A stretch of DNA of 64,000 bases from Capsulimonadaceae bacterium (lineage in GTDB: Bacteria; Armatimonadota; Armatimonadia; Armatimonadales; Capsulimonadaceae). Positions within the stretch are counted from its first letter, which is position 1. Each line of letters opens with the position of its first letter. The translations under genes were made by a program, and so were the position numbers. Under the pieces are notes generated by a model. It worked only from the letters and a program-made list of their open reading frames with translations. It did no database searches and had not been told where the DNA came from. Location of the stretch: NCBI GenBank assembly GCA_965277095.1, contig OZ255718.1, positions 3,295,594 to 3,359,593 on the forward strand. Reading direction: 5' to 3'. This document shows positions 32,000-33,138 of this stretch, piece after piece.

Positions 32000-32042
32000 C
32001 GCTGTGGCCCTCACTTACAATGTGGACGAAGAGACAATTATT

Positions 32043-32663
32043 ATGCGAAAAGTTTGGATGTACATTGATGGCCCCAATTTTTACTACAGCATAAGGAAAT
32101 CTGGTTTAAGTATTGCTTTGGGCTGGTGCGATTTTCGGAAATTAGCTGAACAACATTTGCTTGATGCAAACAGCACTTTAGACCAAATCAGATATTTTAC
32201 GGCCCCTGTTCGAGACTTGGGACATCGGGACGGTGAAGAAGAGCGACAAGATAGATGGATTGAGGCAGTCCATACGATACCGAAATTACAGGTCATTAGG
32301 GGCTTCTATGCAGGTAATGAACCAGTTAATAGAAGGGAAAAGCAGACCGATGTCAAAATTGCGATTAGATTAATACTTGACGCTCTTCAAGATGAAAGTT
32401 ACGATGACGCCATTCTTATTTCAGGCGATACTGATTTAGCACCTGCGGTCTTAGCTGTGCAACAAGAAATACCCGGCGAAAAATCAGTACAAGTTTGCGT
32501 TCCTCTACGTGAGCCTTCGCCATACTGGACACAAATAAGCGATATAGAAGGAATTGTTATCAAAAGAATTACAGCAGATATGCTTCTAAATAGCAGACTA
32601 CCTGAAAGCATTCCGACCAAGCGCGGAACGGTTCACTGCTTGGAGAGATGGAAACTAAAATGA
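32043..32663 (+). CDS. NYN-domain (LabA/DUF88-like) putative ribonuclease (206 aa)
   Basis: VWMYIDGPNFYYS .. KQTDVKIAI .. AILISGDTDLAPAV match NYN acidic motifs. Confidence 0.7.
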   Translation: MRKVWMYIDGPNFYYSIRKSGLSIALGWCDFRKLAEQHLLDANSTLDQIRYFTAPVRDLGHRDGEEERQDRWIEAVHTIPKLQVIRGFYAGNEPVNRREKQTDVKIAIRLILDALQDESYDDAILISGDTDLAPAVLAVQQEIPGEKSVQVCVPLREPSPYWTQISDIEGIVIKRITADMLLNSRLPESIPTKRGTVHCLERWKLK

Positions 32664-33109
32664 ACTCGACGCAAAATTCATCTTCACTTAGGGATGCTTT
32701 AGTCACAGTTGCGCTTGAGTGGCAACAAAGATTTGGAGTTGCCCCGCATATCACTTCTGCTATCTCAGAATATGATGTCGCACTTTTGGTGGGATGCTCC
32801 GAATCCGATTACTCATTACAAATGGCACTTCGTACCGCAGTAGGACGCGGACACGATTTTATCCATGACAACATACGTTATCAGGTGAAGGCTAATCGTC
32901 CCAGCGGTAAGCCTGGAAGCCCGGTAACTTTGGTTTCAAATCCAACAAACGATGAATGGGATCGTCTCGTTTGGGTTTTATATGATAAAAGCTTTGTTAT
33001 GCAAGAAGCCTGGGCATGGGGGGTTAATGAGTTCAGGCAAGAATTTCAGCCCAAACAGCGTTTGTCACCGGCCCATATGCGGCGGGGTCTATGCCTATAC
33101 AAAGCCTAG
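32660..33109 (+). CDS. hypothetical protein with PD-(D/E)xK-like motif (149 aa)
   Basis: ATGA overlap with NYN gene; GHDFIHDNIRYQVKA could be a D..(E/Q)xK nuclease core; inference only. Confidence 0.5.
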   Translation: MNSTQNSSSLRDALVTVALEWQQRFGVAPHITSAISEYDVALLVGCSESDYSLQMALRTAVGRGHDFIHDNIRYQVKANRPSGKPGSPVTLVSNPTNDEWDRLVWVLYDKSFVMQEAWAWGVNEFRQEFQPKQRLSPAHMRRGLCLYKA

Positions 33110-33138
33110 ACTTGAAGGCTCGCAAATATGCGCCAGCA

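What the first reader, a model, noticed from the sequence alone, without database searches (positions are those of the whole stretch)
32000..33138. Two-gene cassette: NYN ribonuclease-like protein plus PD-(D/E)xK-like protein
The first gene has clear NYN/LabA motifs (IDGPNFYY, DVKIAI, LISGDTDLAPAV). The second overlaps it by ATGA and contains GHDFIHDNIRYQVKANR, a plausible D..(Q/E)xK nuclease core. It also has a C-terminal region resembling small restriction-endonuclease-like domains. Translationally coupled nuclease-like pairs of this size on a mobile cassette are typical of toxin-antitoxin or abortive-infection modules. The cassette is also AT-richer than the array average.
Basis: inference. 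Interest (0 to 1): 0.65.

Follow-up and report, generated by a model that had tools for sequence, protein, structure and literature searches.

The report
Two-nuclease integron gene cassette
One mobile integron cassette carries two overlapping genes, an NYN-type ribonuclease and a small restriction-enzyme-like DNA nuclease from an unannotated family; the pair most likely protects against foreign DNA, but no test has shown this, and a classic toxin-antitoxin pair is unlikely.

Summary
Window 31994-33232 is one integron gene cassette in an array of at least 121 cassettes.

- **Gene 1 (32043-32663).** It is an NYN/PIN-like nuclease. It matches Pfam NYN (E 1e-10) and the PADLOC candidate defence family HEC-09 over its full length (E 1e-34). 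All catalytic Asp residues are conserved.
- **Gene 2 (32660-33109, ATGA overlap).** It belongs to an unannotated but widespread family of about 145-aa proteins. E41, D70 and Q79-x-K81 are invariant. Its closest sequence and fold relatives are the BisI-family modification-dependent restriction enzymes NhoI and Eco15I, then PvuII and DpnI.
- **The pair.** It is conserved as a unit in about 13 contigs and three genomic contexts. One is a second integron, where homology starts exactly at the cassette core site.
- **Each family alone.** Both families mostly occur without the other, next to variable neighbours.
- **Partner swapping.** Close NYN relatives carry a different conserved downstream gene ("family X") instead of gene 2.
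- **Toxin-antitoxin reading.** Nothing supports a classic toxin-antitoxin pair. There is no antitoxin-like domain, and both genes keep intact active sites.

Best reading: a mobile two-nuclease defence-type module. Whether the two proteins depend on each other is unresolved. HEC-09 itself showed no phage protection when it was tested. Interest is moderate.

The parts
31900..31999 (+). attC of the preceding cassette (R'' GCCTAAC at 31900-31906, R' GTTAGAC at 31993-31999). The recombination point G|TT at 31993/31994 marks the start of the cassette under study.
   Evidence: Read directly from the sequence. The conserved attC 15-mer hits at 31904. Homology with the second integron copy L170 begins exactly at GTTAG.
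31994..33232 (+). The integron gene cassette (1239 bp): two genes plus its own attC.
   Evidence: Core sites found for 122 of 124 attC anchor hits give 121 cassettes. This one is the 6th longest and has the 3rd lowest GC. The same cassette, about 93% identical over the cassette by my reading of the pairwise alignment, lies in a different attC background in L170.
32043..32663 (+). Gene 1: NYN/PIN-like nuclease of 206 aa, of the HEC-09 type. The ORF is also open from GTG 32004 (219 aa).
   Evidence: Pfam NYN E 1.2e-10, 42.5 bits against a cut-off of 24.2. PADLOC HEC-09 E 1.3e-34 over model positions 1-195 of 203. D9, E99, D103, D129 and D131 are invariant in 39 homologues. AlphaFold pLDDT 92.1. 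Foldseek top hits are the LabA-like protein VPA0982 (2qip, TM 0.63/0.78) and the MARF1 NYN domain.
32660..33109 (+). Gene 2: small PD-QxK nuclease of 149 aa (153 aa if translated from ATG 32648), from an unannotated family distantly related to BisI-family restriction enzymes.
   Evidence: No Pfam or NCBIfam match. PADLOC mREase_II E 4.6e-5. Profile against PDB: Eco15I, E 0.035, with D..QxK aligned. E41, D70, Q79 and K81 are invariant in 36 homologues. AlphaFold pLDDT 83.7. Foldseek top hits are NhoI and Eco15I (E 5e-4 to 8e-4), then PvuII and DpnI.
33139..33238 (+). attC of this cassette (R'' GTCTAAC at 33139-33145, R' GTTAGAC at 33232-33238).
   Evidence: Read from the sequence. The bottom strand folds into a hairpin at -28.4 kcal/mol, z = -4.73, with 0 of 200 shuffles as stable.

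Best explanation
The cassette is a mobile, defence-type module made of two nucleases that can each work alone.

**Gene 2** is most likely a Mg2+-dependent DNA endonuclease of the PD-QxK (Mrr/BisI-like) kind. It almost always occurs without a methyltransferase or any other fixed partner. An active enzyme of this kind would therefore have to spare the host's own DNA. The likely way is by cutting only modified (for example methylated or hydroxymethylated) foreign DNA, as its nearest characterised relatives do.

**Gene 1** is an NYN/PIN-like metal-dependent ribonuclease of the HEC-09 candidate defence family.

In one lineage the two genes became an operon with overlapping stop and start codons. 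They are therefore co-expressed and move together, here as a single integron cassette.

**Shown:** the folds and active-site motifs, cassette mobility, conservation of the pair, and purifying selection. **Inferred:** DNA and RNA as substrates, modification dependence, and the anti-phage role.
For: **Gene identities**
- Gene 1 matches NYN and HEC-09 over its full length, has conserved catalytic Asp residues and an NYN fold.
- Gene 2 has invariant E41, D70 and Q79-x-K81. Its sequence and fold are closest to the BisI-family enzymes NhoI and Eco15I, then PvuII and DpnI.
- The BisI family is described as the PD-QXK (Mrr-like) subgroup of modification-dependent enzymes, with QVK/QIK motifs like the QVK here (PMC11347163).

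**Each family works alone elsewhere**
- The gene 2 family is widespread: 615 hits, 350 clusters at 50% identity, and 217 confirmed stretches in the species-genome scan.
- It has no recurrent neighbour in 80 loci. The largest neighbour clusters cover 9 loci, and their members are at least 72% identical to one another.
- The NYN family likewise has variable neighbours.

**The pair as a unit**
- It is conserved in three contexts: an integron cassette twice, an mgtE-yraN/aroA chromosomal site, and a mazEF-tgt site.
- dN/dS is 0.12 and 0.08.

**Background**
- Integron cassettes are known carriers of small defence systems (papers listed).
- Neighbouring cassettes carry HicBA and a DUF433/PIN-like pair.
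Against: - No experiment supports defence. HEC-09 gave no protection against any phage tested (10.1101/2024.01.29.577857).
- The similarity of gene 2 to BisI-type enzymes is remote: 21 bits, E 0.035 against PDB, TM about 0.4.
- About 60% identity across phyla is unusually high for a restriction enzyme family.
- If the two genes were fully autonomous, the tight ATGA overlap would not be expected to survive. Nor would the link persist down to 52% (NYN) and 66% (gene 2) identity.
- Closely related NYN genes carry a different conserved downstream gene, family X. This suggests that the downstream slot matters for function.
- No promoter stands out inside the cassette: 4 sites found against 2.1 +/- 1.3 expected, and none upstream of gene 1. 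Expression at this position in the array is unknown.
Confidence: 0.45

Rival explanations
1. The two proteins form an interdependent two-component system. They make a complex in which one part senses or restrains and the other executes. Options are a toxin-antitoxin or abortive-infection pair, or a constant NYN subunit with a swappable partner module (the PD-QxK nuclease or family X).
For: - The ATGA stop/start overlap is kept in 9 of 12 pairs (tblastn offset -12, start-codon reading).
- The pair persists through about 50% NYN divergence and three genomic contexts.
- The distance matrices of the two genes correlate (Mantel r 0.58, p 0.0004).
- NYN genes 75% identical to each other carry either gene 2 or family X in the same downstream slot. 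This pattern is typical of modular two-gene systems.
- Two-gene cassettes in chromosomal integrons are commonly toxin-antitoxin pairs, for example HicBA two cassettes upstream.
- In two contigs the pair lies next to mazEF.
Against: - Both families, and family X as well, occur mostly without NYN or any fixed neighbour.
- One NYN gene inside the same clade has no downstream partner at all (L364).
- There is no antitoxin-type DNA-binding domain, and both proteins keep complete active sites.
- Alleles have been re-assorted between pairs. In L171 the NYN gene groups with the window's clade, while gene 2 groups with the other clade.
- In some pairs the genes are 46 to about 190 nt apart.
Confidence: 0.3
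2. The pair is not a defence module. The genes serve ordinary nucleic-acid metabolism such as RNA turnover or DNA repair, or gene 2 is a selfish free-standing nuclease gene that has lodged next to the NYN gene. Their presence in a cassette would then reflect only the indiscriminate capture of small genes by integrons.
For: - HEC-09 showed no defence phenotype.
- LabA-like NYN proteins also have non-defence roles (my own knowledge, not checked here).
- In Armatimonadales-like contigs the pair sits among housekeeping genes: mgtE, yraN-like UPF0102 and aroA.
- The gene 2 family and family X are both small, very conserved and patchily distributed with variable neighbours, as selfish nuclease genes would be.
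- No PADLOC system model matches gene 2 with confidence.
Against: - The patchy distribution (217 confirmed stretches in a scan of 185,579 species genomes) and variable context argue against a housekeeping role.
- The closest characterised relatives of both genes are defence-associated.
- The mgtE-yraN site varies between related contigs. In L169 it also holds extra genes, including an antitoxin-like gene and a methyltransferase, so it behaves like an accessory hot spot.
- The pair is also found beside mazEF and in two integrons.
Confidence: 0.15

Closest known systems
HEC-09 (Hma-embedded candidate 9; PADLOC PDLC04163), a single-gene NYN candidate defence protein
   Same: Gene 1 matches the HEC-09 model over its full length (E 1.3e-34, positions 1-195 of 203). 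It is about 200 aa, has an NYN fold closest to MARF1 and LabA-like structures, and keeps the acidic active-site residues. HEC-09 is described in the same terms.
   Different: HEC-09 was defined as a single gene embedded in Hma systems. Here the gene is in an integron cassette and is translationally coupled to a second nuclease. Other relatives score far higher against the model (1e-62 for L112), so gene 1 is a divergent member. HEC-09 itself gave no protection.
[quoted passage not shown]
   Same: Both are small proteins of about 150-170 aa. The catalytic residues occupy the same positions: E on the core helix, xD, and Q-V-K on the next strand, followed by K-A-(N/R)-R. They are the best sequence-profile hit in PDB and the best Foldseek hits. 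Both are usually solitary genes without a methyltransferase.
   Different: The similarity is remote: E 0.035 to Eco15I, no sequence hit to NhoI, TM about 0.4 and rmsd 7-11 A. The methyl-binding (H/R)(V/I/T/M) motif could not be placed. The family is far more conserved (about 60% identity across phyla) than is usual for restriction enzymes. In this clade it is coupled to an RNase gene.
Two-gene toxin-antitoxin cassettes of chromosomal integrons (for example HicBA at window 30274-30692)
   Same: Two short co-directional genes with overlapping stop and start codons fill a single cassette of a large chromosomal integron.
   Different: No antitoxin-type domain is present. Both products are predicted enzymes with intact active sites. 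Both families live mostly without the other.
Phage-defence integron cassettes (defence systems carried by mobile and chromosomal integrons)
   Same: A compact nuclease-encoding module is packaged as a cassette, and the same cassette is present in two different integrons.
   Different: This cassette has never been tested. No NYN cassette is mentioned in the integron-defence papers retrieved: 'NYN' occurs zero times in the integron-defence papers listed.

Membership tests
Integron gene cassette | The unit is bounded by G|TTRRRY core sites and ends in an attC whose bottom strand folds into an imperfect hairpin. | tested here: met
   GTTAGAC lies at 31993-31999 and 33232-33238, with R'' GTCTAAC at 33139-33145. 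The hairpin is -28.4 kcal/mol, z = -4.7. Core sites found for 122 of 124 attC anchor hits define 121 cassettes on the same strand.
Integron gene cassette | The unit is mobile as a discrete element: the same unit occurs in another array, and homology ends at the core site. | tested here: met
   L170 carries the same two genes. Its NYN protein is 94.7% identical and its gene 2 protein 91.5% identical. Identity starts at GTTAG and decays inside the attC, and the flanks are unrelated.
NYN domain (Pfam PF01936) | The profile match exceeds the curated threshold. | tested here: met
   42.5 bits against a cut-off of 24.2, E 1.2e-10.
NYN domain (Pfam PF01936) | The protein has a PIN-like fold with a conserved acidic metal-binding pocket. 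| tested here: met
   D9, E99, D103, D129 and D131 are invariant in 39 homologues. The model has pLDDT 92. Top structural matches are 2qip (LabA-like NYN) and the MARF1 NYN domain.
NYN domain (Pfam PF01936) | The protein has ribonuclease activity. | not testable with these tools
   This needs biochemistry.
HEC-09 (PADLOC candidate system) | The protein matches the HEC-09 profile over its full length. | tested here: met
   E 1.3e-34, model positions 1-195 of 203. Relatives L001, L087 and L112 also match, with E 1e-35 to 1e-62.
HEC-09 (PADLOC candidate system) | The gene is embedded within an Hma (helicase-methylase-ATPase) or other multi-gene defence system. | tested here: not met
   The gene lies in an integron cassette flanked by unrelated small cassettes. 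In other contigs it lies between mgtE and yraN/aroA, or beside mazEF.
HEC-09 (PADLOC candidate system) | The gene gives anti-phage activity. | not testable with these tools
   The original HEC-09 gave no protection against the phages tested.
BisI family / PD-QxK modification-dependent restriction endonucleases | The catalytic constellation is present: E on the core helix, (P)D, and Q-x-K. | tested here: met
   E41, D70, Q79 and K81 are invariant in 36 homologues. D..QVK aligns with AD..QIK of Eco15I. The family motifs are as described in PMC11347163.
BisI family / PD-QxK modification-dependent restriction endonucleases | Significant sequence or fold similarity places the protein in the family. 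| tested here: inconclusive
   PADLOC mREase_II E 4.6e-5 at 21 bits. Eco15I E 0.035, with NhoI not hit by sequence. Foldseek gives NhoI and Eco15I as top hits (E 5e-4, probability 1.0) but with TM about 0.4 and rmsd 7-11 A. The best reading is a sister family, not a member.
BisI family / PD-QxK modification-dependent restriction endonucleases | The protein has the methyl-group pocket motif (H/R)(V/I/T/M) and cleaves Gm5CNGC. | not tested
   The alignment is too remote to place the motif. Cleavage needs biochemistry.
BisI family / PD-QxK modification-dependent restriction endonucleases | The gene is solitary, with no cognate methyltransferase. | tested here: met
   No recurrent neighbour family was found in 80 species-level loci. 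No DNA methyltransferase lies in the cassette.
Type II toxin-antitoxin module | Two small adjacent co-directional genes are translationally coupled. | tested here: met
   The genes overlap as ATGA at 32660-32663. The same overlap is called in L001, L168, L170 and L171.
Type II toxin-antitoxin module | One partner is an antitoxin: a DNA-binding or neutralising domain that lacks its own catalytic site. | tested here: not met
   Neither protein matches an antitoxin family in Pfam, NCBIfam or PADLOC. Both have complete, conserved nuclease active sites.
Type II toxin-antitoxin module | The toxin family is always accompanied by its antitoxin family. | tested here: not met
   Gene 2 relatives have an NYN neighbour in 1 of 80 species genomes. 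None of the 80 loci from the NYN scan holds gene 2. One NYN gene in the same clade has no downstream partner.
Type II toxin-antitoxin module | One gene is toxic and the other rescues the cell. | not testable with these tools
   This needs expression experiments.

The most novel reading that the evidence does not exclude
The NYN gene and its downstream neighbour form a previously undescribed modular two-component immune system. The NYN RNase is the constant part. It is paired with one of at least two interchangeable small partner proteins: the BisI-like PD-QxK nuclease found here, or the uncharacterised 'family X'. The partner would recognise foreign, perhaps modified, nucleic acid and license or complement the RNase. 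This could also help explain why a single NYN gene (HEC-09) showed no defence. A separate novel reading is that the gene 2 family is a new, widespread family of modification-dependent restriction enzymes.
Probability: 0.2. Interest if true: 0.65.

Novelty: new variant of a known kind. Interest (0 to 1): 0.4.

Why it matters
**A testable context for HEC-09.** HEC-09-type NYN proteins are a defence candidate with no phenotype so far. In one clade they are fixed in an operon with a second gene. That gene is usually a restriction-enzyme-like nuclease and sometimes a different conserved small protein.

**A new enzyme family to test.** Gene 2 stands for a widespread family of small PD-QxK nucleases that carries no Pfam annotation and is named only "hypothetical protein" by the sources seen. 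The searches found 615 database hits and 217 confirmed stretches in the species-genome scan. If these enzymes depend on DNA modification, as their nearest relatives do, they would be new type IV or IIM enzymes. That would interest both phage biology and epigenetic tool-making.

**Integrons as defence stores.** The case also adds to the picture of chromosomal integrons stocking compact defence modules.

None of this overturns current ideas, and no function has been demonstrated.

Tried and rejected
- **Promoter inside the cassette.** TTAGAC-N16-TACAAT spans the core site and looked promising by eye. The consensus scan did not report it, and promoter-like sites are not enriched (4 found against 2.1 +/- 1.3 expected). 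No claim is made.
- **RNA elements.** Rfam gave only a chance snoRNA-like hit outside the cassette.
- **Domain fusions as functional clues for gene 2.** Of 41 long representatives, 4 have an N-terminal DUF6508. Single cases have DUF3320 with REase_MTES_1575, or ankyrin repeats. None is fused to NYN. This was uninformative.
- **A conserved neighbour for solitary gene 2 relatives.** The Prevotella upstream 176-aa gene has no family match and no similarity to NYN. Clustering all neighbours in 80 loci found only synteny among close relatives.
- **Downstream genes of other NYN relatives.** They are mutually unrelated: peptidases, an oxidoreductase, and by eye a Vsr-like and an HNH-like gene.
- **JGI metagenome scan for the NYN gene.** It returned nothing closer than 44% identity, and no pairs.
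- **Viral contigs.** Only 2 gene 2 relatives were found in IMG/VR, so this is not a typical phage gene.
- **One context look-up** (P0013) had no record.
- **Identifying family X.** There was no Pfam, PADLOC or PDB match. A pentatricopeptide hit is a repeat artefact.
- **Host identity.** It could not be established. The attC signature recurs in Armatimonadales MAG contigs, but this is only suggestive.
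Full report
**What is there.** The whole 64-kb window is an integron cassette array. The conserved attC segment AACAATGCGCTGCAC occurs 125 times at up to 3 mismatches, nearly all on the + strand, against 3.6 expected by chance. Pairing each copy with the next GTTRRRY core site defines 121 cassettes with a median length of 473 bp.

The finding lies in one cassette, 31994-33232 (1239 bp). It is bounded by G|TTAGAC at 31993-31999 and 33232-33238. Its own attC is at 33139-33238, and the bottom strand folds into the expected imperfect hairpin (-28.4 kcal/mol, z = -4.7).

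Gene 1 is open from GTG 32004, but every homologue begins at the position of ATG 32043 (M-R/K-K-V-W-M-Y). Gene 2 starts at ATG 32660, which overlaps the gene 1 stop as ATGA. This is the start used by homologues and by gene callers in other contigs.

The cassette is the 6th longest of 121. At 45.7% GC it is the 3rd lowest, against a median of 51.6%. Without the GC-rich attC the difference is about one standard deviation (44.2% against 48.4%, 12th lowest). No long ORF lies on the opposite strand, and there is no Rfam match inside the cassette.

**Gene 1.** It matches Pfam NYN above threshold (E 1.2e-10). It matches the PADLOC model HEC-09 over essentially its full length (E 1.3e-34). In an alignment of 39 homologues the acidic residues D9, E99, D103, D129 and D131 are invariant. 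The AlphaFold model is confident (pLDDT 92.1). Its best structural matches are the LabA-like NYN protein VPA0982 and the NYN domain of MARF1, the same comparison made for HEC-09.

HEC-09 is a single-gene candidate found embedded in Hma defence systems. Together with HEC-01, it was one of two candidates that gave no protection against any phage tested (10.1101/2024.01.29.577857).

**Gene 2.** It has no Pfam or NCBIfam match, and the sources name it only "hypothetical protein". It does have 615 homologues in the protein collection, 350 clusters at 50% identity, and 217 confirmed stretches in the species-representative genome scan. Hosts include Prevotellaceae and other Bacteroidales, Treponema, Acidobacteriota, Gemmatimonadota, Gamma- and Betaproteobacteria, Desulfovibrionaceae and Armatimonadota.

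The family is strikingly conserved, at about 60% identity across phyla. E41, D70, Y78-Q79-x-K81 and the following N83-R84-P85-S86 are invariant, and A82 nearly so.

- The family profile weakly matches PADLOC "Type II methyl-directed restriction enzyme" models (E 4.6e-5).
- In PDB it matches Eco15I, with GxD...QxKA(N/R)R aligned (E 0.035).
- The AlphaFold model (pLDDT 83.7) has NhoI and Eco15I as best Foldseek matches (E 5e-4 to 8e-4, probability 1.0, but TM only about 0.4). PvuII and DpnI follow.
- Viral matches are also annotated as restriction endonucleases.

NhoI and Eco15I belong to the BisI family. These are small dimeric PD-QxK enzymes with a PvuII-like fold that cut GCNGC only when several cytosines are methylated. 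Their motifs are WD/AD and QVK/QIK (PMC11347163).

I conclude that gene 2 is a PD-QxK nuclease of a sister family to BisI, not a demonstrated member of it.

**Is the pair a unit?** Within one clade, yes. The same two genes in the same order occur in five settings:

- L170, a 1.65-kb contig. Its NYN protein is 94.7% identical and its gene 2 protein 91.5% identical to the window's.
- Four syntenic Armatimonadales-like contigs, between mgtE and a yraN-like gene and aroA (L001/L007, L167, L168, L169).
- Contigs where the pair lies beside mazEF and upstream of tgt (L171, L172/L173).
- L362.
- Four more contigs, judged by matching contig lengths.

That makes about 13 instances, reaching down to 52% (NYN) and 66% (gene 2) identity to the window's proteins.

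In L170, nucleotide identity starts exactly at the GTTAG core site, runs through both genes, and decays inside a different attC. The two-gene unit has therefore moved as a bona fide cassette between integrons. The chromosomal copies have no attC of this type.

Both genes are under purifying selection between the two cassette copies (dN/dS 0.12 and 0.08). The pairwise distance matrices of the two genes correlate (Mantel r 0.58, p 0.0004), with some re-assortment. In L171 the NYN gene groups with the window's clade, while gene 2 groups with the other clade.

**The pairing is the exception for both families.** Among the 80 best species-genome loci for gene 2, only the Armatimonadales MAG has an NYN neighbour. 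Neighbours are otherwise variable. Clustering all ORFs within 1.2 kb found nothing beyond synteny among closely related Segatella and Prevotella genomes. None of the 80 loci returned by the separate NYN scan has gene 2, and their downstream genes are mutually unrelated.

Each family can therefore exist and be maintained alone. That is hard to reconcile with an obligate toxin-antitoxin relationship. Neither protein has an antitoxin-type domain.

**An unexpected twist.** NYN genes 50-55% identical to the window's carry one of three arrangements:

- gene 2 downstream (L362, L172);
- nothing downstream (L364);

Family X resembles the gene 2 family in its habits. It has 258 hits, is 50-60% identical across phyla, has no Pfam, PADLOC or PDB match, and only its top five homologues (at least 74% identical) include ones matched to NYN contigs. 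In a distance tree of NYN proteins, the genes linked to gene 2 and those linked to family X are interleaved, with nearest neighbours at 75% identity. So the downstream slot has been swapped between two unrelated small proteins.

This pattern is typical of modular two-gene systems and keeps the interdependent model alive. It is also compatible with small selfish nuclease genes repeatedly lodging in the same place.

**Most likely mechanism.** I rate as most likely (0.45) that this is a mobile defence-type cassette made of two nucleases that can each work alone.

Gene 2 would be a Mg2+-dependent DNA endonuclease with the Mrr/BisI-type PD-QxK site. It is nearly always solitary and has no methyltransferase. 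If active, it must therefore spare host DNA, and the precedent from all its nearest characterised relatives is dependence on DNA modification. Gene 1 would be an NYN RNase of the HEC-09 type. Translational coupling ensures that the two are expressed and transferred together.

The folds, motifs, mobility, linkage and selection are shown. The substrates, the modification dependence and the anti-phage role are inferred.

The main rival (0.30) is an interdependent pair, either sensor and effector or toxin and antitoxin. It is favoured by the conserved overlap, the long-lived linkage and the partner swapping. It is disfavoured by the solitary life of all three families and by the partner-less NYN gene within the clade.

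A non-defence or selfish-gene reading (0.15) cannot be excluded, because HEC-09 had no phenotype and some copies sit among housekeeping genes.

**Comparison and novelty.** Gene 1 is a divergent member of a known candidate family, HEC-09. Gene 2 belongs to an unannotated family related to a known kind, the small PD-QxK restriction enzymes. Integron cassettes that carry defence functions are a known theme. The new elements are the fixed NYN-plus-PD-QxK operon, its packaging as a cassette, and the swappable downstream partner. I class it as a new variant of a known kind, of moderate interest (0.4).

**Context.** Nearby cassettes include HicBA (30274-30692) and a DUF433/DUF5615 PIN-like pair (35443-36010). 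Three DDE transposase genes interrupt the array. The attC signature recurs in Armatimonadales MAG contigs. This agrees with the closest relatives of the pair being in Armatimonadales-like contigs, but the host of the window was not established.

Noticed in passing
window 1-64000: The entire window is one integron cassette array: 121 cassettes delimited, median 473 bp, all attC sites on the + strand, and no integrase in view. The exact attC signature TAACAATGCGCTGCAC recurs 7 times (4 exact, 3 near matches) in a 5.9-kb Armatimonadales MAG contig (L280) and in other Armatimonadales, Woeseia and Proteobacteria MAG contigs. The host may be an Armatimonadales relative with a very large chromosomal integron.
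   Followed up: partly
L087 4603-5178; L363 1245-1754 (also P0327-P0331): 'Family X' is a conserved protein of 169-191 aa with invariant W..HH.YDG and FAWLLR motifs. It has 258 homologues and no Pfam, PADLOC or PDB match. It replaces the PD-QxK gene directly downstream of NYN genes that are 75% identical to PD-QxK-linked ones. Elsewhere it is mostly not next to NYN.
   Followed up: partly
window 30274-30692: A two-gene HicB-like antitoxin and HicA toxin cassette with overlapping genes lies two cassettes upstream of the finding (Pfam E 3e-8 and 1e-16).
   Followed up: partly
window 35443-36010: A cassette holds DUF433 (74 aa) followed by DUF5615/PIN_10-like (110 aa). From my own knowledge this is a putative toxin-antitoxin-type pair.
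   Followed up: partly
window 45785-46606 (-), 51305-52126 (+), 61778-62773 (-): Three DDE transposase genes sit inside the array. The first two give near-identical IS4/IS5-type Pfam scores and lie in opposite orientation. They may be two copies of one IS bracketing about 5 kb of cassettes.
   Followed up: no
window 9477-11553: The longest cassette (2077 bp) also has the lowest GC (41.8%). It encodes a 407-aa ankyrin-repeat protein that matches the PADLOC candidate PDC-M72A (E 6e-39), plus a 226-aa protein with no family match.
   Followed up: no
P0180, P0181, P0186, P0202 (relatives of gene 2): Four cluster representatives at 50% identity carry the gene 2 domain fused to an N-terminal DUF6508. 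One other is fused to DUF3320 with REase_MTES_1575, and one to ankyrin repeats.
   Followed up: partly
L167 4603-4795; L169 2862-3868 and 5076-6154: The mgtE-yraN site that holds the pair in Armatimonadales-like contigs is variable. L167 has about 190 bp inserted between the two genes. L169 has two extra genes upstream of the pair, and an Unstab_antitox-like gene plus a methyltransferase downstream. Gene callers missed the intact gene 2 in L167 and L169.
   Followed up: partly
L002-L006 and L009, 5454-5984 (L009: 3460-3990): In several Prevotella contigs, the solitary gene 2 relative lies 17 nt downstream of a 176-aa ORF. That ORF has no family match and no similarity to NYN. Other strains have a truncated or different gene at that position.
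   Followed up: partly
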